64,000 nucleotides of DNA from Eledone cirrhosa (taxonomy: Eukaryota), in the NCBI GenBank assembly GCA_964016885.1, contig CAXHJY010000590.1:1-64000 (forward strand). Direction: 5' to 3'. Shown here one piece after another: positions 12,866-64,000 of this stretch. Each line of letters begins with the position of its first letter. Position 1 is the first letter of the stretch. A model generated the notes under the pieces. The model ran no database searches. It worked only from the letters and a program-made list of their open reading frames with translations, and was not told where the DNA came from. A program made the translations under genes and the position numbers.

Positions 12866-13217
12866 CATTATTTCTGAAGACGGCATATATGTGTGTTTGG
12901 TATGTATATTTAATCTTGATAGTTTGTATAATTTTGTATAATTTTGTACATAGATCTGTTGAATATGCATGCCAATTCTAACACATATATATCCTAGAAA
13001 CGATCGTTAAATAATGAACTTTTTTTGTTTAATATAAGGAACTGTTTCATTGTTTTATTCATTATTTGTTTAATATTTTATCTTGACTCTGTATACCGTT
13101 TATCTTTCACCGAAAGTGATTTTTCATTACATCTCTTCTTTCCATGATATCCGGAATACATTGAGTTCTTCATACGGATTGGACACTACCGTAAACTCTT
13201 GGTAGATTTATCTACAT
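12866..13217 (+). mobile_element. Solo pseudo-LTR of the PLE family at 50059-64000, with hammerhead at 12866-13016
   Basis: Slightly diverged reverse complement of 50061-50404; CAUUAUUU CUGAAGA ... GAAA CGAUCGUU^AAAUAAUG. Confidence 0.9.
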
Positions 13218-20186: not shown

Positions 20187-20230
20187 TACAATATTAAATA
20201 AATGGAAAACTATATTTATAAAACCATATT

Positions 20231-26307: not shown

Positions 26308-26338
<31 letters not shown>

Positions 26339-27979: not shown

Positions 27980-30086
<2,107 letters not shown>

Positions 30087-38067: not shown

Positions 38068-41000
38068 TTATCTCCAGCCTGTATAGGTTGGCCACTGGTG
38101 TAGGAGGGAGTTTGTTGCTGCTGCCCTTAGGTTTCCCTCGTGTCTTGCTGTGGGCTCATCCGGGATCCTGGATAACAAGGTGTCGAGATGTTTCTTAAAG
38201 ACATCCACCTCCACGTCATGCAAGTCTCGCAGATGCCTCGGCAGCCTGTTGAAGAGTTGAGGGCCCTTGAATCCCAGGCTATTGCAATACCTGCTCCTTA
38301 TTCTAGATGTGGAAGACGGGACCTTTGGCACCACACAGTGACGTCCTGTTCGACGGTTGGTCCAGCTCCCAATGCCAAAGTTTGGTGCTAGTCCCTCCAG
38401 GATTTTCCACATGTAGATCACTGCGTATCTCTCCCGTCTTCACTCCAAGGAGTAGAGGTTCAGTTCCTTCAGCCTCTCCCAGTAGCTTGTCTCCCTCATC
38501 TTGGCAATCCTCTTGGTGTAGCTTCGCTGGATTGCCTCAAGCTCTGTGGTTAGTTTGACACTATGGGGTGACCACAGCTGGGAGCAGTAGTCCAGGCGGC
38601 TTAGGACAAAAGTCCTCCACAGTGTCAACATGGTGTCTCGATCTCTTGTAAGGAAAGTCCTCAAGATCCAGCCAGCGAATCGTCTACATGCTGTCGCCAC
38701 CTTCATGATGTGTGAAGAAAAAGATGCATCATCGCTCATGTCTATGCCCAGGTCTCGTATCGATTTTGACACGGGGATATCGGTCCCTCCTGGTCCTGTG
38801 TAGCTGTGTTCCGCTATATTTGTGTTTGTGTTTGCAGGTTTGTATTGTAGGGCTTGGAATTTGCCAGCATTAAACTGCATGTTGTTTTCTTCCGCCCATC
38901 TGTATATGGCATCCAGATCCTGCTGTAAGAGGGCAGCGTCAGCCGGGTTTTTGATTGCCTGTGCTACCTTAGTATCATCAGCATAGCTAGTGAGGGATGT
39001 TGTTGCATGCACCACAGAGGGCATGTCCGAGAGAGCCACCAAAAACAGTAGTGGTTCCAGGACTGTCCCCTGAGGCACCCCACTTGTTATCGGTGTTTCC
39101 CTCGAGAGGGCCCCATTTGCTGCGACTGCCTGGCTTCTGTCCCTCAGGAAGCCATGCAGCCACTCACCTACTTTTCCAGCTATGCCGAGTCCGTGTAGTT
39201 TGTGACATATCATTCCGTGGTCGACCTTGTCAAAGGCCTTCGCAAAGTCAAGATATATCACGTCTACATGTGAGCTGTCTAGTAGTTGTCTCAGTACCCA
39301 GTCGTAGTGATGTAGCAGCTGTGTAAGGCAGCTTCTTCCTGGGCGGAAGCCATGTTGCGTGCTAGTCAGGCGGTCATTTTCTTCGAGGAAAGTGATTAGT
39401 TTCTTTCTGACGACTCGCTCCATGACCTTACTGATATGCGACGTCAGGGAGACTGGCCTATAGTTCTTGGCCTCCGCTCTACTACCTCCTTTATGGATAG
39501 GGCATATTGTGCCTTCTTTCAGCTCCCTGGGTAGTACACCGCTAGCCAAGGAGCTTCTGAAGAGCATCTTCAGTGGAATTGCTAAGGCCCGCTTACATAT
39601 TTTTAGGAGAACTGCTGGGAATCCATCAGGTCCAGCAGCCGAGTCTGTTCTAATTTCATCAATGGCGTACACCACATCCTCCTCCGTTATGTCTATGTGG
39701 TTGATGGTTGCCATTTCTTGATGTAGTGTTGTGGCATCAAAGAACTCCTCTGGCTTCGTTATTTGCATGTGCCTCAGTGGACATGTGAAGACACTTTTGT
39801 ACTGTTCGTTCAGTATTTCACATATCTCTTGGGGATTTTCGGTTAATGAACCGTCCGTGTGGAAGAGTGGTCCAATCTTGCAGTGTACTGAGGCAGTTTC
39901 TTTTGCAAATTTAAAGAAGGCCTTAGGGTTTGTTTTAATGTTTTCTATGGCCCTGTTCTCTTTCCTTGCCCTCTCATTCTCATGTGAAAGCTTGAGTGCA
40001 ATCTCGGTGTCAAGTAGTGCACGTTTCAAATAGGATTCCTTCTTGTTTTGGTTTTGTTGACTATTCAACTGGTTTGAGAGTTTAGTTCTACGTCTCATAA
40101 GGATTTTCCTATCTCTGGGAATAAGATTTTTGTGTCTGTTTGCCTCTTTCTCCGGGACACACTTTTTGCATATGGTGTGTATCGTTGTCATGAAGTGTTG
40201 AAATTGTGTGTTAGTGTCTTGTGTGGCGATGTTTGCACTCCATGTTTGCTTCCGGATTTCACTCTTAATCTTCTTCCAGTCAGCCCCGTAGAAGTTAAGG
40301 CTGGATAGCGTCCCGGAGCTTCTTGGTGGTTTTGTCTCTGTTGGTTCTCTTGGACCACATATCATTAGCTCTACCAAGTTATGATCCGAGAGAATTGTTG
40401 GTGTCACCTTTACATTGTGGATGAGCACTTCGTTGTTTGTAAAACAGAGGTCCAGGACATTTTCGCCTCTTGTTGGGAGGAGTATTGCTTGCTCCATGAA
40501 CAGCCTGTGTGTGAGGGCCAGCAGGGATTCCGTCTGTCTCTGTTCTATTGACGTCATTCCAGGGAGGAGGTGGCCCTCAGGCCATTTGACCTTTGGTAGG
40601 TTGAAGTCTCCCAGCAGTAGGATGTTGAGACCCTGGTCCAGTTTGTCAAGGACCTCTTCTATCCTACTTAGGCTATCCTCAAATTTACCCTCATGACTGG
40701 GGGCATCGGGCGGCCGATATGTGACACATATTACCGTCTGTAGTTGCTTCATATGTATTATCAGTGTGTCACAGACTGAGTTTGAATGTGTCAACAGTAC
40801 AATTGGTGTGACATCTTCACGGATATACAGAGCAGCCCCACCATGAGTTCTCTCCTTCCTGTCCGAACGAAATACAGTATATTTCGGTATATGTATTTCT
40901 GCATCTGCTATACTGCTTGTCAGGTGCGTTTCGGTTAGTGCCATGCATAGTGCTTGATTGCTTATGGCTAAGTCTCCCAGGTAGGAAATTTTACTCATGT

Positions 41001-41109
41001 TGCTGAGTTTCACCAGGCCCCTGACATTCAGCAGCAGCACTGGTGTGACTTTTGGGGTGCCAGTAATGGCTGTCGGTATGACACCTGGTCTGGTGTCAGC
41101 GGCGGCCAC
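38068..41109 (-). pseudogene. LINE ORF2 APE-RT with one in-frame TGA at 38440-38442
   Basis: ALTETHL, LGDFN, SDHN, YLDFAKAFD, YADD; reads LYSLE*RRERYAVIYMWK and continues in frame to 38068; QGTVLEP where G is expected. Confidence 0.88.
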
Positions 41110-41990
41110 TCTGGGTCCCTTAACTGCGGTGGTCTCGAGTGCTGGTGTGGATGACCCTGCCTCTGGAGACGATGCAGCCAGGTCAGCTGTCCCACAATCT
41201 TCTCTGCCATCACTAAAAAATTTTTCTGATCTGCTGCTGCCATCTGTATCTCGTCGGCATGTGCGTGCCTTCTCCTTGTTGGTGCAGCACGCGCGACATC
41301 AGCATACTTCTGGAGCGGCTTATTTCGGCTTTGGCTGGGGCATGTTGCGCGAGTATGATGGGCATAGTTCGTTTGAGACCTAGGGTGGGCGAATCTGCAT
41401 CCCATCCCTGTCTCTCCATGCCAGCATGTCCCGTTCTTGAAAAACTTGCACATTACTTGGGGTTTTTTGCTCCCAGTGTCTCGGTGCTTTCTGTTCTTTC
41501 TTTGAACAGTTGTCCACTGGTCCCTCTGCGCTTGGTTCTCCTTCGGAAGGTGATTTCGCTTTTCACCTTTGCCCTTAGCTTGTTGGTTGCCCGGCCTGCC
41601 CTCCCTGCCTGTAGCGGAGGGTATATCATTTTCTTTCAGGTCCGTGCTTGTGCTCTCCTCCTTTTCTTTTTCCCTTTCTTTTTCCTCTTCCTTTTCCCTC
41701 TCCTTCTCCTCATCCCTCCCTTCGGTTTTCTCCTCCCCGAGGACACGGCTTAGCATCGCCATATGAGGCGCTATGAGGACATACGCCTTCTCAATTTCTT
41801 TTCTCTTTCTCTCTATCTGTACCAGGGTCCTCATAAACCCATGGCTCTTCAGGTTCTCCGCCATCTTTTTGCTTGGTGGAGACCCATCAGCCATAGTCCA
41901 CCCCTTGATCAAAACCGCTAGTTCAATCTTCGACCAGTTTCGCTGACTCCTGATTTCACATTTTTCCCATTTTTCCTGCATGCAGTCCAT
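41028..41990 (-). CDS. LINE ORF1: Myb/SANT(trihelix)-like N-terminus, acidic coil, CCCH zinc finger
   Basis: WSKIELAVLIKGW...MAENLKSHGFMRTLVQIERKRKEIEKAY; CKFFKNGTCWHGETGMGCRFAHP. Confidence 0.75.
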   Translation of the reverse strand: MDCMQEKWEKCEIRSQRNWSKIELAVLIKGWTMADGSPPSKKMAENLKSHGFMRTLVQIERKRKEIEKAYVLIAPHMAMLSRVLGEEKTEGRDEEKEREKEEEKEREKEKEESTSTDLKENDIPSATGREGRPGNQQAKGKGEKRNHLPKENQAQRDQWTTVQRKNRKHRDTGSKKPQVMCKFFKNGTCWHGETGMGCRFAHPRSQTNYAHHTRATCPSQSRNKPLQKYADVARAAPTRRRHAHADEIQMAAADQKNFLVMAEKIVGQLTWLHRLQRQGHPHQHSRPPQLRDPEWPPLTPDQVSYRQPLLAPQKSHQCCC

Positions 41991-43457: not shown

Positions 43458-46400
43458 TTAGGTAAGGCGGGTCTTCTCTATTACTGAGTACCGCCAAAGG
43501 TCTCGCTCCAGTGACATTGTCTTGGAGAGGTGTAAGCGTGTGAGGTCGGAATTTATCAGCTCGTCCCATGTTTTTCTGGGTCTGCCTACTCCGTGGCTAC
43601 CGTCTATCTTTATTGCCCTGCACTTTGTTATACAGCTGTCGTCTTTCATGCGCATCACGTGACCGTACCAACGTAGCCTTCTCTCGAGTAAACAACATCT
43701 GATCCCTCTTATCTCTAATTTATTCCTTAGTTCGTTTATGCTTTGCCGTTCACGTATATTACTATTACACATCCAGCGGAGCATGCAAGCTTCGTTCCTC
43801 TCTAGTCTGCGTATATCCTCTGCACACAATGCCCAGGTCTCACTGCCATGCAGCATTGCTGTTCGTATGCAGGCATCGTATAACCTGCCTTTCATTTTTA
43901 GGGAGAACCCTCTAGCGGCTAATAGTGGTATAACCTCTCTGAACTTTTTCCATCCAGTTCTGACTCTAGCTACTGTACTTTCAGAGCACCCTCCCCCACT
44001 GCTGATTTTGTCACCCAGATAACGGAAGCTGTCCACTATTTCTATAGAACCCTCTGCGCAGTTGAAGGAGCTAGTATTTTGTGGGCACTTGCTGCTACTT
44101 ATTGCACCAGAGCACCGGCCACATGTAAAATCTATGTTCTTAGTTAGCTTACCTGTGATCCCACTACATCTTTTATGCACCCATACTTTGCATTTGGGAC
44201 ATAAAATGGAGTTTCTACCTACGCCTTTCCTACACACTGAGCATGGCCATTTCCCCGATGGGACCGCCGCCTTATTTTCTTTCCTACAAACTAGAACTTT
44301 AGTCTTAGCCAGGTTAATTTTAAGGCCTTTTGATTCTAGGCCGTGCTTCCACGTTTGGAATTTCTTCTCTAGTTCGGTCATTGATTCAGCTATGAGCGTT
44401 AGATCATCTGCGTATAGGAGTTCCCATGGGCAGCCGGTCTTGAACTCCTCTGTTATAGCCTGAAGGGCAATAATAAATAGTAGGGGGCTAAGTACAGAGC
44501 CCTGATGGACACCAACTTTTACGCTAAACTCTTCACTATATTCGTTGTTAATTCTAACCTTACTGACTGTTTCTTTATACATGGCTTGTATAGCTCTCAC
44601 AAGCCATTCATCAACACCTAGTTTTCTAAGAGACCACCAGATAATGGAACGGGGGACTCTGTCGAAGGCTTTCTCCAAGTCGACAAAAGCTAAGTATAGG
44701 GGTTTACTTTTAGCTAGGTACTTCTCCTGTAGTTGTCGTACAATGAAAAGAGCGTCTGTGGTACTTTTGCCTGACACAAACCCGAACTGCATTTCATCTA
44801 GATCAATTCTCTCTCTGATTAGTTGCGCTATTACTTTTTCCGTGACCTTCATGACCTGGTCGATTAATTTAATGCCTCTATAGTTACTCCTATCTAGGGC
44901 ATCTCCTTTTCCCTTATAGCAGTTAACGATGATGCTGCTACGCCATTCCTTCGGAACAACCCCATTCTGTACGACTTGGTTAACTATCCGGGTGACCATG
45001 GTGTGTCCCACCGAACCAGATGCCTTCAGCATCTCAGCAACTATTTCCGAAGGCCCAGCCGCCTTACCCGTCTTCATATCTTTGATTGCCTTACTTATTA
45101 TACTACCTTTAACTAACACTGCTGGTCCCTCTATTGGATCGATCTGGGGGAGACTGTCTTTCTCCCATTTGTTCTCCTCATTTAGAAGCCTTTCGTAGTG
45201 ACACTTCCAAGCTACCTTCTTATCAGCGTCGGTGATGGCAAGTATGCCATCATCGTTAAGTACACACTTCTCCCCGACAATATCACGGTTTTCCTTGACA
45301 CATTGCCTGGCAATCCTGAACACCTCACGTTTTTGGTCCTCACGTTGTAGAACATGCTTGAACTTTCTTTCCTCTGCTTCCCTTCTTGCGAAGTACACTT
45401 GTCTCCTAGCTTCCCTCCTGGCCACTTGATAGTCTTCTCTACTTCCCCCATCCCGCCATACTTTCCAAGCCTGCTTTTTGGCCTTAATTGACTCCTCCAC
45501 CTTACTGTTCCACCACCATGTTACTCTCCTCCTACCTACAGGCCTGCTCCAGCCACAGACTTCGTCTGCCGCCGTCAGCAGGTTTGCTCTCAGGAATTCC
45601 CACTGTTCCTCTATATTATACGACTCTAATTGCTCTTCCTTACTGTCGAAAGCGTCAAGTAATTTGCTTTGAAATTTATTTCTGGCTATGGGGTCCTTTA
45701 GCTTCCATATTTTTCTCCTGAGGATAGTCCTCTTTCGCTGTCTAGTACGTCTCGTCCTGACTATGAGGTCGCTAATTATCAGTCTATGTTGGGAGGTGAA
45801 TTCTTCATGGGGGTGGGATTTAGTGTTAACAACAGACACTCTGTCACGTCTTCTGGTAAGGATATAATCTACCTGGCTTGTGTGTTCCCCCGATCTATAG
45901 GTGATCAAGTGATTGTCTCGTTTTTTGAAGTTAGTGTTACAGATAGTTAAGTTATTTGCGTCGCAGAATTCCAGGATTCTGGAGCCTTCCTCATTTCTAG
46001 TACCGAACCCATAGCCTCCATGGATTCCGTCATAGCCGTCACAATGTTGTCCAACGTGACCATTTAGGTCGCCTGCAATAACTATATAGTCACTGTCGGT
46101 TATTTGGGAGGTAGCGAGCATCAGTGTCTCGTAGAATCTGTCTTTTATAGCGCGGGGCTGTCCGGATTGGGGTGCGTACGCAGATATTACTGTCACCGTA
46201 GTTTTATTGAGGACAAGTCTTATTTTAATTATTCTGTCGTTCACTCTATTTACGTCTATTATCTTATCTGCCCACTTTTCTGCTACCATGATTCCTACCC
46301 CACCCAACCCATTGTCATTTCCCACCCAGAAAAGCTTATAGCATCGCTCTTTACCCACGATGAATCTAGCCGACCTTCCCCTCCACCTGGTCTCTTGAAT

Positions 46401-46478
46401 ACAACAAACATCGACCTCCTTACGTTCAAGCATTTCTACAACCTCGTTAGAGCGACCCTTTAAGGTGCCTACATTCAT
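43458..46478 (-). CDS. RTE ORF: APE endonuclease + RT + inserted PHD-type zinc finger, 1006 aa, intact
   Basis: MNVGTL, CIQETRW, SAYAPQ, GDLNGHVG; FVDLEKAFD, HQGSVLSPLLF, LYADD; CSVC...CPKCKVWVHKRC...CGRC; RRLRWYGHV, GRPRKTW. Confidence 0.93.
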   Translation of the reverse strand: MNVGTLKGRSNEVVEMLERKEVDVCCIQETRWRGRSARFIVGKERCYKLFWVGNDNGLGGVGIMVAEKWADKIIDVNRVNDRIIKIRLVLNKTTVTVISAYAPQSGQPRAIKDRFYETLMLATSQITDSDYIVIAGDLNGHVGQHCDGYDGIHGGYGFGTRNEEGSRILEFCDANNLTICNTNFKKRDNHLITYRSGEHTSQVDYILTRRRDRVSVVNTKSHPHEEFTSQHRLIISDLIVRTRRTRQRKRTILRRKIWKLKDPIARNKFQSKLLDAFDSKEEQLESYNIEEQWEFLRANLLTAADEVCGWSRPVGRRRVTWWWNSKVEESIKAKKQAWKVWRDGGSREDYQVARREARRQVYFARREAEERKFKHVLQREDQKREVFRIARQCVKENRDIVGEKCVLNDDGILAITDADKKVAWKCHYERLLNEENKWEKDSLPQIDPIEGPAVLVKGSIISKAIKDMKTGKAAGPSEIVAEMLKASGSVGHTMVTRIVNQVVQNGVVPKEWRSSIIVNCYKGKGDALDRSNYRGIKLIDQVMKVTEKVIAQLIRERIDLDEMQFGFVSGKSTTDALFIVRQLQEKYLAKSKPLYLAFVDLEKAFDRVPRSIIWWSLRKLGVDEWLVRAIQAMYKETVSKVRINNEYSEEFSVKVGVHQGSVLSPLLFIIALQAITEEFKTGCPWELLYADDLTLIAESMTELEKKFQTWKHGLESKGLKINLAKTKVLVCRKENKAAVPSGKWPCSVCRKGVGRNSILCPKCKVWVHKRCSGITGKLTKNIDFTCGRCSGAISSSKCPQNTSSFNCAEGSIEIVDSFRYLGDKISSGGGCSESTVARVRTGWKKFREVIPLLAARGFSLKMKGRLYDACIRTAMLHGSETWALCAEDIRRLERNEACMLRWMCNSNIRERQSINELRNKLEIRGIRCCLLERRLRWYGHVMRMKDDSCITKCRAIKIDGSHGVGRPRKTWDELINSDLTRLHLSKTMSLERDLWRYSVIEKTRLT

Positions 46479-46821
46479 GGTACCAACTCTGAAGTTTTGG
46501 ATTGCGTTTGGAGGGTGGGAGCGGTGGGGCGCGGGGTTATGTTAGCCATCCTGGGCCGAAACAAGGAGGAGTGCTTGCATTCTCGTCCACGAGGTGAATT
46601 TGGCTTTATCTTTGGCATTGTCGCTGAGCGTCCACATTTTTCTCTCTTCAACTCTCCAGAATTCCGTAGTCCATCCATCATATCGAAAAGCAACCAGTTA
46701 AGCGATAGTATGGGCCTCTGACTTATGATTGGTCCACGTAATAATGGTGGTGCGTGGGGGCGGGAGGGAGGGATGATGGGTTGTTAGCGAGAATGTAAGG
46801 TTTAAGATAAGATCGCCGTAT

Positions 46822-47917: not shown

Positions 47918-50058
<2,141 letters not shown>

Positions 50059-50251
50059 ATTATGTAGATACATCTACCAAGAGTTTACGGTAGTGTCCAA
50101 TCCGTATGAAGAACTCAATGTATTCCGGATATCATGGAAAGAAGAGATGTAATGAAAAACCACTTTCGGTGAAAGATAAACGGTATACAGAGTCAAGATA
50201 AAATATTAAACAAATAATGAATAAACAATTCCTTATATTAAACAAAAAAAG

Positions 50252-50406
50252 TTCATTATTTAACGATCGTTTCTAGGGCATATATGTGTTATAATTGGTA
50301 TGCATATTCAACAGATCTATGTACAAAATTATACAAAATTATACAAATTATCAAGATTAAATATACATACCTAACACATATATACGCCGTCTTCAGAAAT
50401 AATGAA
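50252..50406 (-). ncRNA. Type I hammerhead motif with ~115-nt extended stem II
   Basis: UUCAUUAUUU CUGAAGA CGGC...AUAUAUGUGUUA-GGUAUGUAUAUUUAA.../...UUGAAUAUGCAUACC...UAACACAUAUAU-GCC CUA GAAA CGAUCG UU^AAAUAAUGAA. Confidence 0.8.
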
Positions 50407-51344
50407 GTATATTTATTGATAATAACAACAATTCAAAATTTCAGTTCAAAATTGACCAATGAAAACACAAAGGGTTAAAAGCAGTTCGGTGTGTGTATAT
50501 ACATGTAAAATCCTTACACATATTTTACAAAAATGTATGTATAACTTGTATACGCATACTAAAAAGATGGATGCAAACACAAAATTTCAAGGTTAATATC
50601 TCTGTAAGCTTAAAATGCGCTGATAAGATGCGCATTGATACTTATGGAGTCAAGCATATACATATATTTTTTCATATTCACACATATCAGTACAATCACA
50701 CATACACGCGCGTATATGCATAAATATACACATAACCACGAACATACAAACACACACACACCCCCACTCACATTTATATATGTGGATATAAAATCATAAG
50801 CGCATGGATATTAAATCACTCACATAAAACACTGGCACACACATTTCAAGATCAAGATACAGAAATTAGGTGGGAGGGGGGGGAGGGGTCAGTATTCAAT
50901 TGTCTGAGCAGACTGCCTAATATAAATGTATCTATAAATTAAGAAAAATAAAAAAATAAAACAATAAAATATAATAAATATAATATAATATACATACACA
51001 TACAGATATATACACATACATACATGTACGCGCACATAGAAATATTTACGCATACACACATACACACATACATATACAGTCATACACACACATACACTTA
51101 CACGAACATACACATACACATATATAAAGATATATATATACACACACACACACACGCAACACATACACACATACACATATATATAAAAAATGAATAATAA
51201 AGATATATATCCATATATATATACACACACATATATATATATATATATACATATATATACATATACATACACATACATCTAAATATACATACACATACAT
51301 ACACACATACATGTACATACATGTACATACATATACGCACATCG

Positions 51345-51393
<49 letters not shown>

Positions 51394-51741
51394 TAGACAT
51401 ATAGATACATACACACACAACTTACATACACATATATATATATATAGATGTACATTCATACATAGAATTAGATATATAATCATACATACATATGCACCTA
51501 CTTATACTCATATATATAAATACATACGCTTCCATATATGCGTATATACATAAAAAACACTACAACCTCACCTAACTCAGACATACAAATAAAAATAATA
51601 ATCAAAAGGCATATGTATATACATACACACACGCATTAATAGAGATATATATATATACACACATACATACACATATATATATATACATATATATACACAT
51701 ACATATATATATATACATATATATATACACACACATACACT

Positions 51742-51773
<32 letters not shown>

Positions 51774-51856
51774 AACATATATATCCACACACTCATACCA
51801 CCATAAATACACATACAAACACCCACATATATATATATATATATATATATACACAC

Positions 51857-51895
<39 letters not shown>

Positions 51896-52042
51896 TAAAA
51901 AACAGACATGCACATATATATATATATATTTTTTTACACTTATATATACACATATTATATACACATACACAACCTCACTTATACACATATACACATAAGT
52001 TATATTATAATAATAAAGAATAATATACATATATATATATAC

Positions 52043-52079
<37 letters not shown>

Positions 52080-52200
52080 CATACATACACATACATACAT
52101 ACACATAAACATATACATACATAAATACACACATACGAATAAAGACATATATTCACATATAGATACCTATATATATATATATATATCTATATATATATAT

Positions 52201-52253
<53 letters not shown>

Positions 52254-53392
52254 GACACACATACACACTCACATATATATATATATATATATATGTGTAT
52301 GTGTGTGTGCGCACATACACATATATACACACACACATACAAACACACACAAACACATACATATGCATACGTGCACACACACACACATATATCACATAGA
52401 TACGAAGATAAACATATAAATAGAGAGACATACATATATATACAACATACCTACACATACATACATACATACGCATATACATACACATATATATATATAC
52501 ATATATATATATATATTCCCATATATACAAGCATACACATACATACACATACATACACATATACATACAACACATTCACATACACATACATATATAATGC
52601 ATATATATACATATATATACATACATATGTACACTCATATATACACACGCAATCTTACATTCATATTTGCATGCGCATATATGTATTTTTATATTTAGAT
52701 ATAAATACCCAAACCTATATAGACACCTACCTACATATATATATTCATACATAGACGCTTACAAATACAGATGATAATAGTATGGTGGAAAGGGGGGGTT
52801 TGGAGAAGGGGATCAAAGTAAATATATGTTTCAAGAAACATATAATATTTTCCGTATCTTTATTCAATGTATGTTCTTACATATTTTCAGTGCTAGGAAA
52901 TACGACAAACAAGAAAAGGCAAAATCTATGCATCTCAAAATAAATAAGTATACCATTAATCATATGTTAACTAAACCAAAGATAGTCAACATATTGATTT
53001 CTAAGGTGTAAATTAGTTAGGTTTATAATATTTGAAGCAGAATTTTGAAGTCAAACAGTAGTAGATTATTAATTACAGTATAACTAAATTAAAGTTAATA
53101 ACGTTATGGTATCAATATTAGGAAATGAATTTAGTAATAGGGAAAAGAAACCCAAATAAAAATAAAATAAAGTATTACATCGGTAGTAGCATATAAATTA
53201 TATGTTAACTAAATTAAAAATTATATATTTATTTCAATAGTATATGTTAATTAGTATATGTTAATTAGGTATACAATACATAAAGCAGATATTGTATTTC
53301 ATCAATAGCATAATATAATTATATGCAAATAGAAATCAAAATTAATACGCATACATATACATATACATACACATACACATATACATACATAT

Positions 53393-53433
<41 letters not shown>

Positions 53434-53504
53434 TACACATATATACATACATACAGATACACATACACACACATACATACACATACACATATACATATAC
53501 ATAT

Positions 53505-53848
53505 GGAGGCATATGGCTTAGTGGTTAGAGCATTGGCCTTGCAATCGAAAGGTTGTGAGTTCAATTCTCAGACCGGGTGATGTGTTGTTTCCTTGAGCAA
53601 GAGACTTTATTTCACATTGCTCCAGTTTACTCAGCTGTAGAAATGAGATGATAGGGACTGGGGTCTCTATCATTCCACTGCAAAGTGGTCGTGGAGGTGC
53701 CACGGCAAAAAAGCACCCAGCACTCACTGTAAATGAGGTTGGTGTTAGGAAGGGCATCCAGCTGTAGAAATCATGCCAGAATCAGTTCCCGTCCCACCCT
53801 TGCAAGCAGGGAAAAGCGGACGTAAAATGAAATGATGATGAAATGATG
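53505..53848 (+). mobile_element. tRNA-derived CORE-type SINE with RTE-derived 3' tail, inserted in PLE unit 1
   Basis: A-box TGGCTTAGTGG, B-box GAGTTCAATTC, CORE-like CCTTGAGCAAG...CTCAGCTGTAGAAATG, tail shared with the RTE 3' UTR; absent from unit 2; ATAT duplicated at both ends. Confidence 0.9.
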
Positions 53849-54314
53849 ATATCTTTTTCAAAAAATTGCACAGAATATATTAACTAGGTATATATCCAAA
53901 ACACATCCCATTCTATGATTACATGACATTCTGCAATTCGTCTGTATAAGGATACTAATTTTAAGCAAATTAAAATTAAAATTTTTAGGTTGATTAAAAC
54001 TAAAACCAAATAATAAATATATTTCCAAAATGTATAATAATTAGGTCTATAATACTAAAAATTATTTCTCTGTCATTGGATACACGATATTATTATGTTA
54101 TATTTTATCTGTAAAAGAGTTATAATAAAAGGTTTAAATAAATTAAAATTAATCTATAAATTAAATTACTAAGTATATATTAGTAATATTTAAAGGTTTT
54201 TCACAATTTATGATTACATAATATTTTATATTCTCATCTGTAATAAAATATTTATTAAATTAAATTTATAGGTTAACTAACATTTAAATTAAATTAATTT
54301 CTAGAATAATGTTA

Positions 54315-56756
54315 TTAATTAGGTTTATAATATTTAAATGTTTTTTTTAGTTTATGATTACACGATATAATTAATTCCTGTCGTTTATTTAATAAGATAT
54401 CCCTAGACTTCATTATTTCAAATAGTTCTTGGGAACATAATCTACATTCCTTTCTATTATTTTGATAAGGGGTGGCTCTTTTGAGCACACTCCAGGTCAA
54501 ATCATATTTTATATTCTTATTTTTATAACTATTGATTTTTTCTGCTAGAGATGTTGTATTAGCCAGTGCGGCATTTTTAAAACTATGCTTGTGGGTATTA
54601 AACCTTGTCTTAAAATTGTTAGAGGTAGCTCCTATATATGAGCAAATAGAATCTTTAGTTTTAACATTACATTTATAGACTATGTTGTTAACAAGACAAT
54701 TCCCTTTTAATGGGCAGTTTGCTTTGTTTCTACAGTTACATCCTTTCGTTAATTCTGTATTTGAGGAGATATTATGGTTAATTTGATGTACTGGTGGTAT
54801 ACTTATGGTTTTCTTACATTTATATGCATTATATGCACTTATATTTTGTTTTATGTTATTTGTTGTAGAGTATGAGAATTTAACTGTAGACCTATTTAAG
54901 ATTTGATGGTATTTGTGGTTTGGCGGGAAGTTTTTCTCAAGGATATAAAAAAATTTTTTAGCAATATTATCCTTAACTTGTAAATTAAAAGGAGCATTAT
55001 ACCAAGTAACTCGTCTATTACGGTTTCTATGTTGTTTATTATTTTTATTATTTTTATAGGTTGTATCGTGATTTTTACTAGGAGGATTAATGTTAATGAT
55101 CTCACCATAACTATTTTTAGTTATATTTGTAGATTTAGGTGTTTTATCTTTTTTATTAGGAGTTTTATTATTAATATTTATTATAGTTGTATGATGAGTA
55201 GTTTTTTGAGGGTTACTATACTTTATATTAGAAGATTTAGTATTTTGGGGTATATTGTGGGTGGCATTTAGGTGTGTACTTTTCATTTGGTGTTTGTTGG
55301 TAATATTATGCTGTATGTTTTCAGTATTTTTAGTAGAAGGTATATACTCTAATCTATTTTTGTGGCCACTTCTATCTAGAGCTTCATTATAAAAGGTCGC
55401 ATTTTTATCAAATACATCTTGGTTAGAAGAAAGGTTAGAAATTCTAAGTGATATATTATATGCAAGGTTTTTAAGGATAGATTTAGGGTGATTAGATTGT
55501 GAGTGTATGTAATGTAAGTTTTGGTTAGGTTTATGGTAAGGTTGGTAGATACCCGTAGCTAAATCTAAAGTTATATCTAGGAAATTTACTACTTTACTTG
55601 TTTTTTCAAAAGTAATATTAAGATTATAATAGTCTTTAAGGAAAGTTCTAATATGTTTTTTGTTTTTTTCGATTTCTGAAAGGCTAAGGTTGTTAGAAAG
55701 AAGAAGACAGTCATCACGATATAAACCACCTTTGAGGTGGGGAAAAGAGGCATTTATGTTGAAAAGGAGAAAGAGGCCCACAAGATCAGTAATTTGGGCG
55801 GAATCGCTTGAACCCATAGTAATATCAAAAAGATTACTGTATGTGTTTCTGGTCCAGTATTCATTCTGAAATTCAATAAGTGTTAGTCTAGCATGTGTAA
55901 TAATGTTAATGTCATCCGAAGTTAAGCTAGATCTATTTTTAGCAAATATCAATGCTTTGTTCAGGAGTATAGGTGATATAGAAGAATAGTAATTATCTAT
56001 ATCAAATTGTAGGAAAGAAGCAGAAGATTTACACCTAATATTTTTAAACCAGTTAATTACCTGGGAGGTGTTTTCCCAGAGTGGTAAAATAACGTGTTTT
56101 CTTATTTGTGGGATGACTCTATCTAAAATTTTTTTGCTAATTATTCCAATATCTGATTTGGAGGGACATATAAGTCTGATAGAAGGATTAGAGTTAAAGA
56201 TAGATTTGTGATCTTTCAGGTTGAAATGTGGTCTTTTCAATGCCAAAGGTTCAGTTCTATCTTCAATGTTTAGTTTTTTTACTATGTTGTGTGTTTTGTT
56301 GTTGATGTTGGTGAGTGACACATTATTAGATTTTTTATAATTTTTTCTGAGTTCTTTATATATGAACTCATTATAATGTTCAATATCCATATGATACAAG
56401 TTACCAGTTTTGTCCGAGTGGACATGGATTTTTTTAGACTTTTTTAGGTCCAATAGGGTAGAATCAAGGTCCTTTTGAAAGACGGATTTATACTTTTTAA
56501 ATTTGAGGTGTTTAATTAAATTAAAAAGGTCTTTCTCGAAGTCTTCAAGTAAAAAGTTGTGTGGTGGATTCTTGTAAGTATTGAAATCATACATATATTT
56601 CCGATCTGCTTGTTTAGATTTTCTATCGAAGTGGTAGGCTCTCCATCTAACCCTTCTGATAAAATTATTAGTTTTCTGAATCATAAGGAGTAAGAAGTCG
56701 TCCTTAGAAGGTATTGGTATGTTTTTTAAGGAGGTTCCTAAATATTGTTTTTCCAT
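54315..56756 (-). CDS. PLE protein (RT + C-terminal GIY-YIG endonuclease), intact, 813 aa from the first ATG; Hydra-clade-like
   Basis: SDKTGN, FDIDNYYSSI, TMGS, GLYRDD, VNFLDITL, WYNAPF, CNCRNKANCPLKGNC, IVY...YIG, CRLC...CNH. Confidence 0.93.
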   Translation of the reverse strand: MEKQYLGTSLKNIPIPSKDDFLLLMIQKTNNFIRRVRWRAYHFDRKSKQADRKYMYDFNTYKNPPHNFLLEDFEKDLFNLIKHLKFKKYKSVFQKDLDSTLLDLKKSKKIHVHSDKTGNLYHMDIEHYNEFIYKELRKNYKKSNNVSLTNINNKTHNIVKKLNIEDRTEPLALKRPHFNLKDHKSIFNSNPSIRLICPSKSDIGIISKKILDRVIPQIRKHVILPLWENTSQVINWFKNIRCKSSASFLQFDIDNYYSSISPILLNKALIFAKNRSSLTSDDINIITHARLTLIEFQNEYWTRNTYSNLFDITMGSSDSAQITDLVGLFLLFNINASFPHLKGGLYRDDCLLLSNNLSLSEIEKNKKHIRTFLKDYYNLNITFEKTSKVVNFLDITLDLATGIYQPYHKPNQNLHYIHSQSNHPKSILKNLAYNISLRISNLSSNQDVFDKNATFYNEALDRSGHKNRLEYIPSTKNTENIQHNITNKHQMKSTHLNATHNIPQNTKSSNIKYSNPQKTTHHTTIININNKTPNKKDKTPKSTNITKNSYGEIININPPSKNHDTTYKNNKNNKQHRNRNRRVTWYNAPFNLQVKDNIAKKFFYILEKNFPPNHKYHQILNRSTVKFSYSTTNNIKQNISAYNAYKCKKTISIPPVHQINHNISSNTELTKGCNCRNKANCPLKGNCLVNNIVYKCNVKTKDSICSYIGATSNNFKTRFNTHKHSFKNAALANTTSLAEKINSYKNKNIKYDLTWSVLKRATPYQNNRKECRLCSQELFEIMKSRDILLNKRQELIISCNHKLKKTFKYYKPN

Positions 56757-57099
56757 TGTGATATGGATGATGGACAATTGAAAGAGCTCAACTAAATGTA
56801 TATGGGTTTACAAAATCATACATATATATATGTTTATACATAAATATAAAATTAATACACACATACAGTACAAAAATACGAATATTTCCGTGAAAATAGG
56901 AGCAAAATTATGTAGATACATCTACCAAGAGTTTACGGTAGTGTCCAATCCGTATGAAGAACTCAATGTATTCCGGATATCATGGAAAGAAGAGATGTAA
57001 TGAAAAACCACTTTCGGTGAAAGATAAACGGTATACAGAGTCAAGATAAAATATTAAACAAATAATGAATAAACAATTCCTTATATTAAACAAAAAAAG

Positions 57100-57254
57100 T
57101 TCATTATTTAACGATCGTTTCTAGGGCATATATGTGTTATAATTGGTATGCATATTCAACAGATCTATGTACAAAATTATACAAAATTATACAAATTATC
57201 AAGATTAAATATACATACCTAACACATATATACGCCGTCTTCAGAAATAATGAA
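57100..57254 (-). ncRNA. Second copy of the extended-stem-II hammerhead
   Basis: Same sequence as 50252-50406. Confidence 0.8.
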
Positions 57255-58192
57255 GTATATTTATTGATAATAACAACAATTCAAAATTTCAGTTCAAAAT
57301 TGACCAATGAAAACACAAAGGGTTAAAAGCAGTTCGGTGTGTGTATATACATGTAAAATCCTTACACATATTTTACAAAAATGTATGTATAACTTGTATA
57401 CGCATACTAAAAAGATGGATGCAAACACAAAATTTCAAGGTTAATATCTCTGTAAGCTTAAAATGCGCTGATAAGATGCGCATTGATACTTATGGAGTCA
57501 AGCATATACATATATTTTTTCATATTCACACATATCAGTACAATCACACATACACGCGCGTATATGCATAAATATACACATAACCACGAACATACAAACA
57601 CACACACACCCCCACTCACATTTATATATGTGGATATAAAATCATAAGCGCATGGATATTAAATCACTCACATAAAACACTGGCACACACATTTCAAGAT
57701 CAAGATACAGAAATTAGGTGGGAGGGGGGGGAGGGGTCAGTATTCAATTGTCTGAGCAGACTGCCTAATATAAATGTATCTATAAATTAAGAAAAATAAA
57801 AAAATAAAACAATAAAATATAATAAATATAATATAATATACATACACATACAGATATATACACATACATACATGTACGCGCACATAGAAATATTTACGCA
57901 TACACACATACACACATACATATACAGTCATACACACACATACACTTACACGAACATACACATACACATATATAAAGATATATATATACACACACACACA
58001 CACGCAACACATACACACATACACATATATATAAAAAATGAATAATAAAGATATATATCCATATATATATACACACACATATATATATATATATATACAT
58101 ATATATACATATACATACACATACATCTAAATATACATACACATACATACACACATACATGTACATACATGTACATACATATACGCACATCG

Positions 58193-58241
<49 letters not shown>

Positions 58242-58589
58242 TAGACATATAGATACATACACACACAACTTACATACACATATATATATATATAGATGTA
58301 CATTCATACATAGAATTAGATATATAATCATACATACATATGCACCTACTTATACTCATATATATAAATACATACGCTTCCATATATGCGTATATACATA
58401 AAAAACACTACAACCTCACCTAACTCAGACATACAAATAAAAATAATAATCAAAAGGCATATGTATATACATACACACACGCATTAATAGAGATATATAT
58501 ATATACACACATACATACACATATATATATATACATATATATACACATACATATATATATATACATATATATATACACACACATACACT

Positions 58590-58626
<37 letters not shown>

Positions 58627-58706
58627 ATATATATCCACACACTCATACCACCATAAATACACATACAAACACCCACATATATATATATATATATATATAT
58701 ACACAC

Positions 58707-58747
<41 letters not shown>

Positions 58748-58894
58748 TAAAAAACAGACATGCACATATATATATATATATTTTTTTACACTTATATATA
58801 CACATATTATATACACATACACAACCTCACTTATACACATATACACATAAGTTATATTATAATAATAAAGAATAATATACATATATATATATAC

Positions 58895-58926
<32 letters not shown>

Positions 58927-59050
58927 ATACATACATACACATACATACATACACATAAACATATACATACATAAATACACACATACGAATAAAGACATAT
59001 ATTCACACATAGACACCTATATATATATATATATATCTATATATATATAT

Positions 59051-59103
<53 letters not shown>

Positions 59104-60252
59104 GACACACATACACACTCACATATATATATATATATATATATGTGTATGTGTGTGTGCGCACATACACATATATACACACACACATACAAACACACAC
59201 AAACACATACATATGCATACGTGCACACACACACACATATATCACATAGATACGAAGATAAACATATAAATAGAGAGACATACATATATATACAACATAC
59301 CTACACATACATACATACATACGCATATACATACACATATATATATATACATATATATATATATATTCCCATATATACAAGCATACACATACATACACAT
59401 ACATACACATACATACACATATACATACAACACATTCACATACACATACATATATAATGCATATATATACATATATATACATACATATGTACACTCATAT
59501 ATACACACGCAATCTTACATTCATATTTGCATGCGCATATATGTATTTTTATATTTAGATATAAATACCCAAACCTATATAGACACCTACCTACATATAT
59601 ATATTCATACATAGACGCTTACAAATACAGATGATAATAGTATGGTGGAAAGGGGGGGTTTGGAGAAGGGGATCAAAGTAAATATATGTTTCAAGAAACA
59701 TATAATATTTTCCGTATCTTTATTCAATGTATGTTCTTACATATTTTCAGTGCTAGGAAATACGACAAACAAGAAAAGGCAAAATCTATGCATCTCAAAA
59801 TAAATAAGTATACCATTAATCATATGTTAACTAAACCAAAGATAGTCAACATATTGATTTCTAAGGTGTAAATTAGTTAGGTTTATAATATTTGAAGCAG
59901 AATTTTGAAGTCAAACAGTAGTAGATTATTAATTACAGTATAACTAAATTAAAGTTAATAACGTTATGGTATCAATATTAGGAAATGAATTTAGTAATAG
60001 GGAAAAGAAACCCAAATAAAAATAAAATAAAGTATTACATCGGTAGTAGCATATAAATTATATGTTAACTAAATTAAAAATTATATATTTATTTCAATAG
60101 TATATGTTAATTAGTATATGTTAATTAGGTATACAATACATAAAGCAGATATTGTATTTCATCAATAGCATAATATAATTATATGCAAATAGAAATCAAA
60201 ATTAATACGCATACATATACATATACATACACATACACATATACATACATAT

Positions 60253-60295
<43 letters not shown>

Positions 60296-60828
60296 TACAC
60301 ATATATACATACATACAGATACACATACACACACATACATACACATACACATATACATATACATATCTTTTTCAAAAAATTGCACAGAATATATTAACTA
60401 GGTATATATCCAAAACACATCCCATTCTATGATTACATGACATTCTGCAATTCGTCTGTATAAGGATACTAATTTTAAGCAAATTAAAATTAAAATTTTT
60501 AGGTTGATTAAAACTAAAACCAAATAATAAATATATTTCCAAAATGTATAATAATTAGGTCTATAATACTAAAAATTATTTCTCTGTCATTGGATACACG
60601 ATATTATTATGTTATATTTTATCTGTAAAAGAGTTATAATAAAAGGTTTAAATAAATTAAAATTAATCTATAAATTAAATTACTAAGTATATATTAGTAA
60701 TATTTAAAGGTTTTTCACAATTTATGATTACATAATATTTTATATTCTCATCTGTAATAAAATATTTATTAAATTAAATTTATAGGTTAACTAACATTTA
60801 AATTAAATTAATTTCTAGAATAATGTTA

Positions 60829-63270
60829 TTAATTAGGTTTATAATATTTAAATGTTTTTTTTAGTTTATGATTACACGATATAATTAATTCCTGTCGTTT
60901 ATTTAATAAGATATCCCTAGACTTCATTATTTCAAATAGTTCTTGGGAACATAATCTACATTCCTTTCTATTATTTTGATAAGGGGTGGCTCTTTTGAGC
61001 ACACTCCAGGTCAAATCATATTTTATATTCTTATTTTTATAACTATTGATTTTTTCTGCTAGAGATGTTGTATTAGCCAGTGCGGCATTTTTAAAACTAT
61101 GCTTGTGGGTATTAAACCTTGTCTTAAAATTGTTAGAGGTAGCTCCTATATATGAGCAAATAGAATCTTTAGTTTTAACATTACATTTATAGACTATGTT
61201 GTTAACAAGACAATTCCCTTTTAATGGGCAGTTTGCTTTGTTTCTACAGTTACATCCTTTCGTTAATTCTGTATTTGAGGAGATATTATGGTTAATTTGA
61301 TGTACTGGTGGTATACTTATGGTTTTCTTACATTTATATGCATTATATGCACTTATATTTTGTTTTATGTTATTTGTTGTAGAGTATGAGAATTTAACTG
61401 TAGACCTATTTAAGATTTGATGGTATTTGTGGTTTGGCGGGAAGTTTTTCTCAAGGATATAAAAAAATTTTTTAGCAATATTATCCTTAACTTGTAAATT
61501 AAAAGGAGCATTATACCAAGTAACTCGTCTATTACGGTTTCTATGTTGTTTATTATTTTTATTATTTTTATAGGTTGTATCGTGATTTTTACTAGGAGGA
61601 TTAATGTTAATGATCTCACCACAACTATTTTTAGTTATATTTGTAGATTTAGGTGTTTTATCTTTTTTATTAGGAGTTTTATTATTAATATTTATTATAG
61701 TTGTATGATGAGTAGTTTTTTGAGGGTTACTATACTTTATATTAGAAGATTTAGTATTTTGGGGTATATTGTGGGTGGCATTTAGGTGTGTACTTTTCAT
61801 TTGGTGTTTGTTGGTAATATTATGCTGTATGTTTTCAGTATTTTTAGTAGAAGGTATATACTCTAATCTATTTTTGTGGCCACTTCTATCTAGAGCTTCA
61901 TTATAAAAGGTCGCATTTTTATCAAATACATCTTGGTTAGAAGAAAGGTTAGAAATTCTAAGTGATATATTATATGCAAGGTTTTTAAGGATAGATTTAG
62001 GGTGATTAGATTGTGAGTGTATGTAATGTAAGTTTTGGTTAGGTTTATGGTAAGGTTGGTAGATACCCGTAGCTAAATCTAAAGTTATATCTAGGAAATT
62101 TACTACTTTACTTGTTTTTTCAAAAGTAATATTAAGATTATAATAGTCTTTAAGGAAAGTTCTAATATGTTTTTTGTTTTTTTCGATTTCTGAAAGGCTA
62201 AGGTTGTTAGAAAGAAGAAGACAGTCATCACGATATAAACCACCTTTGAGGTGGGGAAAAGAGGCATTTATGTTGAAAAGGAGAAAGAGGCCCACAAGAT
62301 CAGTAATTTGGGCGGAATCGCTTGAACCCATAGTAATATCAAAAAGATTACTGTATGTGTTTCTGGTCCAGTATTCATTCTGAAATTCAATAAGTGTTAG
62401 TCTAGCATGTGTAATAATGTTAATGTCATCCGAAGTTAAGCTAGATCTATTTTTAGCAAATATCAATGCTTTGTTCAGGAGTATAGGTGATATAGAAGAA
62501 TAGTAATTATCTATATCAAATTGTAGGAAAGAAGCAGAAGATTTACACCTAATATTTTTAAACCAGTTAATTACCTGGGAGGTGTTTTCCCAGAGTGGTA
62601 AAATAACGTGTTTTCTTATTTGTGGGATGACTCTATCTAAAATTTTTTTGCTAATTATTCCAATATCTGATTTGGAGGGACATATAAGTCTGATAGAAGG
62701 ATTAGAGTTAAAGTTAGATTTGTGATCTTTCAGGTTGAAATGTGGTCTTTTCAATGCCAAAGGTTCAGTTCTATCTTCAATGTTTAGTTTTTTTACTATG
62801 TTGTGTGTTTTGTTGTTGATGTTGGTGAGTGACACATTATTAGATTTTTTATAATTTTTTCTGAGTTCTTTATATATGAACTCATTATAATGTTCAATAT
62901 CCATATGATACAAGTTACCAGTTTTGTCCGAGTGGACATGGATTTTTTTAGACTTTTTTAGGTCCAATAGGGTAGAATCAAGGTCCTTTTGAAAGACGGA
63001 TTTATACTTTTTAAATTTGAGGTGTTTAATTAAATTAAAAAGGTCTTTCTCGAAGTCTTCAAGTAAAAAGTTGTGTGGTGGATTCTTGTAAGTATTGAAA
63101 TCATACATATATTTCCGATCTGCTTGTTTAGATTTTCTATCGAAGTGGTAGGCTCTCCATCTAACCCTTCTGATAAAATTATTAGTTTTCTGAATCATAA
63201 GGAGTAAGAAGTCGTCCTTAGAAGGTATTGGTATGTTTTTTAAGGAGGTTCCTAAATATTGTTTTTCCAT
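60829..63270 (-). CDS. Second intact PLE RT-GIY-YIG ORF
   Basis: Matches the first copy except for two amino-acid changes seen (KSIF/KSNF, NSYG/NSCG). Confidence 0.93.
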   Translation of the reverse strand: MEKQYLGTSLKNIPIPSKDDFLLLMIQKTNNFIRRVRWRAYHFDRKSKQADRKYMYDFNTYKNPPHNFLLEDFEKDLFNLIKHLKFKKYKSVFQKDLDSTLLDLKKSKKIHVHSDKTGNLYHMDIEHYNEFIYKELRKNYKKSNNVSLTNINNKTHNIVKKLNIEDRTEPLALKRPHFNLKDHKSNFNSNPSIRLICPSKSDIGIISKKILDRVIPQIRKHVILPLWENTSQVINWFKNIRCKSSASFLQFDIDNYYSSISPILLNKALIFAKNRSSLTSDDINIITHARLTLIEFQNEYWTRNTYSNLFDITMGSSDSAQITDLVGLFLLFNINASFPHLKGGLYRDDCLLLSNNLSLSEIEKNKKHIRTFLKDYYNLNITFEKTSKVVNFLDITLDLATGIYQPYHKPNQNLHYIHSQSNHPKSILKNLAYNISLRISNLSSNQDVFDKNATFYNEALDRSGHKNRLEYIPSTKNTENIQHNITNKHQMKSTHLNATHNIPQNTKSSNIKYSNPQKTTHHTTIININNKTPNKKDKTPKSTNITKNSCGEIININPPSKNHDTTYKNNKNNKQHRNRNRRVTWYNAPFNLQVKDNIAKKFFYILEKNFPPNHKYHQILNRSTVKFSYSTTNNIKQNISAYNAYKCKKTISIPPVHQINHNISSNTELTKGCNCRNKANCPLKGNCLVNNIVYKCNVKTKDSICSYIGATSNNFKTRFNTHKHSFKNAALANTTSLAEKINSYKNKNIKYDLTWSVLKRATPYQNNRKECRLCSQELFEIMKSRDILLNKRQELIISCNHKLKKTFKYYKPN

Positions 63271-64000
63271 TGTGATATGGATGATGGACAATTGAAAGAG
63301 CTCAACTAAATGTATATGGGTTTACAAAATCATACATATATATATGTTTATACATAAATATAAAATTAATACACACATACAGTACAAAAATACGAATATT
63401 TCCGTGAAAATAGGAGCAAAATTATGTAGATACATCTACCAAGAGTTTACGGTAGTGTCCAATCCGTATGAAGAACTCAATGTATTCCGGATATCATGGA
63501 AAGAAGAGATGTAATGAAAAACCACTTTCGGTGAAAGATAAACGGTATACAGAGTCAAGATAAAATATTAAACAAATAATGAATAAACAATTCCTTATAT
63601 TAAACAAAAAAAGTTCATTATTTAACGATGTTGTATGTATGTGTATGTATATTTAGATGTATGTGTATGTATATGTATATATATGTATATATATATATAT
63701 ATATGTGTGTGTATATATATATGGATATATATCTTTATTATTCATTTTTTATATATATGTGTATGTGTGTATGTGTTGCGTGTGTGTGTGTGTGTATATA
63801 TATATCTTTATATATGTGTATGTGTATGTTCGTGTAAGTGTATGTGTGTGTATGACTGTATATGTATGTGTGTATGTGTGTATGCGTAAATATTTCTATG
63901 TGCGCGTACATGTATGTATGTGTATATATCTGTATGTGTATGTATATTATATTATATTTATTATATTTTATTGTTTTATTTTTTTATTTTTCTTAATTTA

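What the first reader, a model, noticed from the sequence alone, without database searches (positions are those of the whole stretch)
50252..50406. Hammerhead with a very long (~115 nt) stem II in an intact PLE, in three copies
Seen: a 10-bp stem I flanks CUGAAGA and GAAA-CGAUCG-UU. The two core halves are separated by a long imperfect hairpin (AUAUAUGUGUUA/UAACACAUAUAU, GGUAUGUAUAUU/AAUAUGCAUACC). The base of stem II is non-canonical (C-GGC...GCC-CUA). Copies lie at 50252, 57100 and, diverged, 12866; the solo copy begins right at stem I. Known: PLE hammerheads normally have short stems II. Inferred: standard descriptors with loop-length limits would miss this motif, so the family may be wrongly scored as ribozyme-less.
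Basis: partly seen in the sequence, partly recalled or inferred. Interest (0 to 1): 0.78.

Follow-up and report, generated by a model that had tools for sequence, protein, structure and literature searches.

The report
Long-armed hammerhead in octopod retrotransposons
Thousands of copies of a jumping gene in this likely octopus-type genome carry a hammerhead ribozyme motif with one arm several times longer than usual, too long for the published search pattern, and it is predicted to cut RNA only slowly and in pairs.

Summary
Observation confirmed. The motif is a type I hammerhead in the pLTR of an intact, young Hydra-clade Penelope-like element (PLE; 813-aa RT/GIY-YIG ORF) in a 3-Gb, likely octopod genome. 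One exact pattern finds 6,048 copies (control 0). The core halves lie 116 nt apart, against 10-26 nt in other Hydra PLEs; the published descriptor allows 26 nt at most. Stem I and the base of stem II covary across three subfamilies while the core is constant. Other families in this genome have 76-104-nt stems II. Across these long motifs stem III occurs as five different perfect palindromes, which points to dimer cleavage. The odd stem II base (C·A) is ordinary for Hydra hammerheads. Cleavage is untested and no RNA data were available. No evidence this family was ever scored ribozyme-less. Verdict: new variant of a known kind.

The parts
50252..50406 (-). Type I hammerhead motif in the 3' pLTR: stem I 10 bp, CUGAAGA 50396-50390, GAAA 50273-50270, predicted cleavage after GUU between 50262 and 50261
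50274..50389 (-). 116-nt stem II: C·A, G·U, G-C, C×C, then 14-bp and 12-bp helices and an imperfect apical hairpin
50263..50270 (-). Palindromic stem III/loop 3 (ACGAUCGU), predicted dimerisation helix
50403..50403 (-). Modal 5' end of short genomic copies (7 nt before C3; the A of UC|AUU); putative transcription start. The equivalent position in the upstream pLTR is 57251
   Evidence: transcription start is inferred
50212..50221 (-). Second UUCAUUAUUU, predicted to compete for the 3' strand of stem I
   Evidence: prediction only
50063..50199 (-). About 135-nt 'tail' present at only one end of insertions; holds the clade-wide RCTC...GAGY hairpin motif (50193-50113) with a 72-nt spacer
54315..56756 (-). 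Intact 813-aa ORF: RT plus C-terminal GIY-YIG, with Hydra-clade motifs
50059..56906 (-). Full 6,848-bp unit (150-nt leader, ORF, about 3.9-kb microsatellite-rich 3' UTR, pLTR) inserted in (TA)n
57100..57254 (-). Identical hammerhead in the upstream pLTR of the tandem; would be the 5' end of the transcript for the 56756 ORF
56907..63420 (-). Upstream tandem unit with a second intact ORF (60829-63270)
63421..64000 (.). Partial third pLTR (63421-63632, starts in stem III) joined to an inverted 5'-truncated copy that runs beyond the window
12866..13215 (+). Solo short copy from stem I to the tail end, between microsatellites

Best explanation
This is a type I hammerhead motif in the pLTR of an intact Hydra-clade Penelope-like retrotransposon, with stem II lengthened to 116 nt, and it likely cleaves after GUU only slowly, when two copies pair through the palindromic stem III. 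Shown: the anatomy, about 6,000 copies, covarying stems, a constant core, and short copies that begin at stem I. Inferred: the long arm is a tolerated, lineage-specific expansion that is kept paired because it must bring the two core halves together. Transcription likely starts 7 nt before the core. RT likely primes at the two tail ends within the RNA, as in PAc, and runs to the RNA 5' end; this gives solo copies and head-to-head pairs that begin at stem I. Most integration templates are therefore uncleaved. Cleavage probably needs the second pLTR 6.8 kb away or another transcript, and possibly the element's own protein.
For: Covariation on 16 sequences of subfamilies A, B, C: 93.7% of 607 cells paired, 7 of 38 pairs with changes on both sides (2 in stem I, 3 at the stem II base, 2 further up); slid controls 28-55% paired. 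The CUGAnGA and GAAAC-GT core was kept in all 16, but they were selected by that pattern. Unselected check: 11 of 12 core positions were invariant in 104 BLAST-found young copies, and one position had 1 variant (overlapping loci may be counted twice). Stem III is a perfect palindrome in five different sequences among long-stem motifs and in the window's second family. Cofolding gives the double-hammerhead fold at -111.2 versus 2 x -48.2 kcal/mol. 5' ends: 24 of 90 tail-selected copies start within -11..+4 of C3 and 0 of 90 within 5 nt of the cleavage site; genome-wide 708 start at -7. In PMC11167929 (section 3, read) the PAc HHR cleaves only with protein, uncleaved RNA is the dominant template, and the tail lies between two RT start sites. 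PLE min-HHRs cleave weakly and only as multimers (PMC4209133, parts 1-2 of 4). Tree of the EN region: the long-stem families A, B, C, E form a clade (95/87), sister to the window's 31-nt family.
Against: No cleavage assay, and no RNA run was listed. The shuffle control for the number of pairs with two-sided change was reached by 117 of 500 shuffles, and further pair types by 455 of 500; the 16 rows represent only three subfamilies. With 90 nt of downstream context, predicted stem I pairing falls to 0.0 in 3 of 3 family A copies and 0.01-0.10 in 3 of 3 family B copies, but stays at 0.77-0.94 in 2 of 4 family C copies. In longer contexts the core is predicted partly mispaired. The cofold also pairs A14 with U17, an inactive register. 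Starts at the cleavage site are only 31, of which 12 begin with AG; 5 of 5 such cases inspected are stem I fold-back joints; the control position gives 15. Rare substitutions in the core are lower than in flanks (1.05 versus 2.6-3.0 per 1000) but rest on 2 events. A long stem II removes the usual loop 2 contact, and GUU is a weaker triplet than GUC (both recalled). The tree uses only 219 columns and is midpoint-rooted.
Confidence: 0.65

Rival explanations
1. The motif is catalytically almost silent and is kept as a folded signal at the RNA 5' end, for example for binding the RT or as an internal promoter.
For: Copies come mostly from uncleaved RNA. The downstream anti-strand is predicted to sequester stem I in families A and B. 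PAc HHR mutants still insert in vitro.
Against: The exact catalytic core and a palindromic stem III of changing sequence are kept across families whose proteins are only 30-76% identical to family A over the EN region; this is what selection for catalysis predicts. A few head-to-head junctions have both partners starting at the cleavage site, such as L189.
Confidence: 0.2
2. The long stem II is itself a selected module, a protein-docking or regulatory dsRNA arm that gates cleavage.
For: 76-126-nt arms occur in several families with unlike sequences, some branched. Pairing is maintained along the arm, 92-98% of cells in helices 3-5.
Against: Length varies within family A by 10-nt tandem units (104-126 nt). 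The tail hairpin spacer (72-82 nt versus 5-30 nt) and the 3' UTR are lengthened too, which suggests general non-coding expansion. No A-to-G editing signature: 7 of 37 A sites versus 6 of 50 T sites, p 0.42. Short-armed hammerheads (12-14, 21, 31, 38 nt) coexist in the same genome.
Confidence: 0.12
3. The 5'-end pile-up at stem I marks a stall of 5'-3' decay or an RT jump at the folded ribozyme, not a transcription start. This concerns only one step of the best explanation.
For: Ends spread over -11..+4, at the 5' edge of a stable fold. Stem I complementarity does cause fold-back joints.
Against: The ends have a mode and an edge at -7, the A of an initiator-like YC|ANT (initiator consensus recalled). 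One family C copy starts at the same base (L059). Penelope has an internal, initiator-type promoter in its pLTR (PMC2377424 passages). An RT stall would be expected on the 3' side of the fold.
Confidence: 0.25

Closest known systems
Hydra-clade PLE hammerheads (Craig et al. 2021, PMC8557442; including Hydra-1_Obim)
   Same: Type I HHR in the pLTR downstream of a C-terminal-EN ORF; (TA)n targets; 2-3-bp stem III with a near-palindromic loop; frequent non-G-C pair at 10.1-11.1; U, A or C at the cleavage site.
   Different: Core-to-core distance 116 nt versus 26 nt or less (23 nt in Hydra-1_Obim, by eye); unit 6.8 kb versus under about 3 kb; tail about 135 nt versus the 30-40 bp described for PLEs.
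Minimal dimeric PLE hammerheads (Cervera and de la Pena 2014, PMC4209133)
   Same: Palindromic helix III, predicted dimer, no canonical tertiary loops, extra nucleotides at the stem II base.
   Different: Their 'larger than usual' helix II is 7-8 bp; the descriptor stops at 26 nt.
PAc (Poseidon, Anolis) protein-assisted HHR (PMC11167929)
   Same: Tail between two 3' ends; copies made from uncleaved RNA.
   Different: Different PLE clade; there the ORF starts inside stem II, here the ATG lies about 340 nt downstream of the motif.
Discontinuous CLEC2 hammerhead (review passages, PMC2950038)
   Same: A large insertion hides an intact core from pattern searches.
PLE-X1_sMoe hammerhead (File S2 of PMC8557442)
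   Same: A PLE HHR flagged as deviating, with a long stem II region.
   Different: About 54 nt (by eye), in an EN-minus spike-moss element; half the length seen here.

Membership tests
Type I hammerhead ribozyme | Core CUGANGA ... GAAA ... UH | tested here: met
   CUGAAGA, GAAA, GUU; near-invariant in 104 young copies
Type I hammerhead ribozyme | Three helices around the core, helix I open-ended | tested here: met
   stem III is invariant within A, B, C and supported across families by palindrome exchange
Type I hammerhead ribozyme | Canonical G10.1-C11.1 pair | tested here: not met
   C·A here, U-A in family B. Not strictly defining: only 16 of 52 Hydra-like HHRs have G-C, and families D, E and H in this genome have G-C
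Type I hammerhead ribozyme | Loop 1-loop 2 tertiary contact | tested here: inconclusive
   No terminal loop 2 lies near the core; an alternative contact was not modelled. PLE min-HHRs lack it as well
Type I hammerhead ribozyme | Site-specific self-cleavage | not testable with these tools
   No assay; genomic 5'-end signal at the site is weak and ambiguous
Dimeric PLE hammerhead | Short palindromic stem III | tested here: met
   ACGAUCGU; duplex -10.0 kcal/mol; dimer fold favoured
Hydra-clade PLE | Single ORF with RT and C-terminal GIY-YIG | tested here: met
   813 aa, YRDD and YIG motifs. Pfam gave no hit
Hydra-clade PLE | RWK, DKT, CxCX5C linker, CxxC and CxH motifs | tested here: met
   RWR (variant), SDKTG, CNCRNKANC, CRLC, CNH against the definition
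Hydra-clade PLE | Insertion into (TA)n; tandem and inverted structure with pLTR and tail | tested here: met
Hydra-clade PLE | Length generally under 3 kb | tested here: not met
   6,848-bp unit, owing to a 3.9-kb 3' UTR; a described trait, not a defining one
Hydra-clade PLE | RT phylogeny with reference Hydra versus Neptune, Poseidon and Nematis | not tested
   Reference sequences were only readable in a supplement; the tree has no named references

The most novel reading that the evidence does not exclude
Octopod Hydra PLEs evolved a class of hammerheads in which a 75-125-nt stem II and a downstream anti-stem-I strand form a protein-gated switch at the first nucleotides of the transcript. The element's own RT would decide whether the RNA is cut or copied, and the 5' end of the ribozyme doubles as the promoter start.
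Probability: 0.12. Interest if true: 0.78.

Novelty: new variant of a known kind. Interest (0 to 1): 0.5.

Why it matters
Natural hammerheads are catalogued with descriptors that cap stem II and its loop at about 26 nt. Here at least 6,000 copies of one family group, and about 650 matches above control from other families, lie outside that cap, so ribozyme censuses in large invertebrate genomes may be low. The family is young (100 of 100 top ORF hits are 99-100% identical) and abundant, and the genomic copies record RNA 5' ends. That gives a direct test of the open question of whether PLE hammerheads cut the RNA used for integration; here mostly they do not. The RCTC...GAGY tail hairpin is a candidate RT recognition signal for the whole clade.

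Tried and rejected
Rfam: no hammerhead hit at 50050-50600 up to E 10. It also missed three short Hydra-like HHRs at the gathering threshold, so the miss says nothing specific about the long stem. The whole-window scan showed only 150 of 455 rows, all microsatellite-driven. Pfam: no hit for either Hydra ORF. RNA evidence: no RNA holder listed; three runs of unknown kind were laid as contigs and not used as evidence of expression or ends. ADAR-editing signature in stem II: a nominal excess per base vanished when counted per site; rejected. Cleavage-derived copies: head-to-head junctions near the site number 101 for gaps 14-44 and 47 for gaps 45-75. By eye about 10-12 of the 50 listed have a partner starting exactly at the site, but T-run/A-run fold-back explains most, and many junctions extend past the site; inconclusive. 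The control position is imperfect because its TA matches the target repeat. Family D: no Hydra ORF between two copies 4.6 kb apart, so its link to Hydra rests only on the tail motif. An intron ending at stem I, as in D. virilis Penelope, was considered; no YAG lies at the 5' ends seen. Lunse et al. (PMC5785218) was not held; I saw only its citation and a review's summary, and it may describe longer variants. One supplementary file of PMC4209133 could not be searched. bioRxiv supplements are closed. Earlier scan findings: none. Alignment had one row with wrong coordinates and was replaced.

Full report
1. Observation. The RNA folds into stem I, a long stem II and a short stem III, with z = -7.13 and 0 of 200 shuffles as stable. 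The segment between CUGAAGA and GAAA is 116 nt. Copies lie at 57100-57254 (identical), at 12866-13019 (+ strand, 94.8%) and just beyond the window. A pattern holding both core halves with a 95-125-nt gap has 6,048 genome matches and 0 in the control.

2. The host element. The motif ends a 6,848-bp unit that has an intact 813-aa ORF at 56756-54315 and a 3.9-kb microsatellite-rich 3' UTR; a second unit, a partial pLTR and an inverted truncated copy lie upstream. The 100 best-scoring genomic ORF matches are 99-100% identical, so the family is young. [quoted passage not shown] These are the features of the Hydra clade given by Craig et al. (PMC8557442: section 11, passages and supplement parts 1, 2, 24, 52 read). 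A single-exon LRR-Ig gene in the window is 83% identical to an Octopus vulgaris protein and 70% to a cuttlefish protein, so the host is likely an octopod.

3. How unusual is the length? Published Hydra HHRs span 26 nt or less between the core halves (File S2, counted by eye). In 77 metagenome contigs with related ORFs (the best 80 of 438 were kept), a scan allowing about 160 nt found sense-strand HHRs with 10-25-nt segments. It also gave matches of 35-150 nt in six contigs (L240, L242, L262, L269, L281, L282); these are antisense, lack a standard stem III, or overlap a better short motif, and I treat them as chance. The tally of 52 distinct motifs was filtered to under 30 nt. The descriptor of Cervera and de la Pena allows 26 nt at most (supplement passages). 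In this genome long arms are common: family A 104-126 nt, B 99-107, C 100-103. A pattern for canonical G10.1-C11.1 motifs with a 72-102-nt gap gives 894 matches against 243 in the control and reveals further families of 76-104 nt. Families B, C and E lie next to Hydra-type coding sequence; for D and H only the tail motif links them. On a tree of the EN region (36 rows, 219 columns), A, B, C and E group together (95/87), sister to the window's second Hydra family, whose stem II is 31 nt (where it is labelled 33; corrected). Family labels are mine. Literature searches and passage look-ups in PMC6765202, PMC7229834 and PMC6155905 found no description of such long stems II; Lunse et al. could not be read.

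4. Is the structure under selection? From 62 distinct A/B/C motifs, 18 were kept at under 96.5% similarity. I aligned 16, dropping a 126-nt duplication variant and a poly-C variant. For the named structure, 93.7% of 607 cells pair and 7 of 38 pairs change on both sides, including U-A to C-G in stem I and G-C to A-U at the stem II base; slid controls pair 28-55%. The weaker statistics (117 of 500 and 455 of 500 shuffles) and the relatedness of the rows temper this. The first stem II position is C·A in A and C and U-A in B. C·A also occurs in a short Hydra-like HHR (L293), so the junction is ordinary for the clade. Stem III is a perfect 8-nt palindrome in five different sequences among long-stem motifs, with four other rarer sequences one change away from a palindrome. 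Two monomers cofold into the double-hammerhead arrangement, 15 kcal/mol below two monomers.

5. What the copies say about the RNA. Of 90 copies chosen by a tail sequence (the first 90 of 2,147), 24 begin within -11..+4 of C3, 8 inside the motif, 0 within 5 nt of the cleavage site, 3 downstream of it, and 55 extend further upstream. Genome-wide, 708 copies begin at -7 with two non-matching flanking bases, 31 begin at the cleavage site and 15 at a control position. Many short copies are head-to-head pairs, one with the roughly 135-nt tail and one without. This fits the PAc model (PMC11167929, section 3 read): RT starts at two internal sites and copies uncleaved RNA. My inference is that priming in the 5' pLTR runs off at the RNA 5' end at -7, an initiator-like site and likely transcription start, and that two such cDNAs anneal. 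A minority may derive from cleaved RNA: in L189 both partners start at the site, but the overall signal is ambiguous.

6. Neighbouring RNA elements. A second UUCAUUAUUU 40 nt downstream is predicted to capture the 3' strand of stem I in A and B, but less so in C. Shuffle p values are 0.03-0.04 for A and 0.07-0.24 for B and C, so this is a lead only. A motif RCTC-N-GAGY follows the HHR in 38 of 48 metagenome elements (shuffled mean 1.9, maximum 7) with spacers of 5-30 nt. In families A and C the spacer is 72-82 nt. Both pLTR structures, the tail and the 3' UTR are thus lengthened, which favours tolerated expansion over a dedicated function of the arm.

7. Mechanism and verdict. Shown: anatomy, copy number, covariation, core constancy, palindrome exchange and 5'-end distribution. 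Inferred: dimeric, slow, perhaps protein-assisted cleavage after GUU; transcription start at -7; neutral lengthening under a pairing constraint. Untested: any catalysis. It works like a dimeric PLE hammerhead and meets the sequence and structure tests for a type I HHR in a Hydra-clade PLE. It differs in a stem II four to ten times longer than in other Hydra PLEs. New variant of a known kind; interest 0.5.

Noticed in passing
window 20190-26830: A second, divergent Hydra-clade family (about 41-47% protein identity) as a near-perfect inverted pair; its hammerhead (26722-26787 +, mirror 20231-20296 -) has a 31-nt stem II and an AUAUAUAU palindrome.
   Followed up: partly
L237-L313, 45-110 nt downstream of the HHR; window 50113-50193: Clade-wide hairpin motif RCTC...GAGY at the start of the tail, in 38 of 48 elements; candidate RT recognition or initiation signal. 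I did not search the literature for it.
   Followed up: partly
L195-L221, L329, L341 (family D): An abundant family with a 95-97-nt branched stem II, canonical G10.1-C11.1 and a 4-5-bp stem I; no ORF found nearby, possibly non-autonomous.
   Followed up: partly
L335:2137-2800: Three short hammerheads in a 310-bp tandem repeat, retrozyme-like.
   Followed up: no
window 4264-6228 (-): Single-exon LRR-Ig transmembrane gene, 83% identical to an Octopus vulgaris LRFN5-like protein.
   Followed up: partly
window 14083-19213 (+), 38440-41298 (-), 43458-46541 (-): Long open frames of APE-RT non-LTR retrotransposons (one with a 1.2-kb tandem duplication of its 3' part; one RTE-like by recalled motifs).
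   Followed up: no
window 27223-27309 and 27637-27983: Perfect inverted repeats (hairpins), possibly MITE-like or fold-back insertions.
   Followed up: no
L181, L182, L186, L187, L191: Joints in which an inverted copy starting at stem I continues directly into the 3' strand of stem I, as expected if the cDNA end folds back on the stem I complement.
   Followed up: partly
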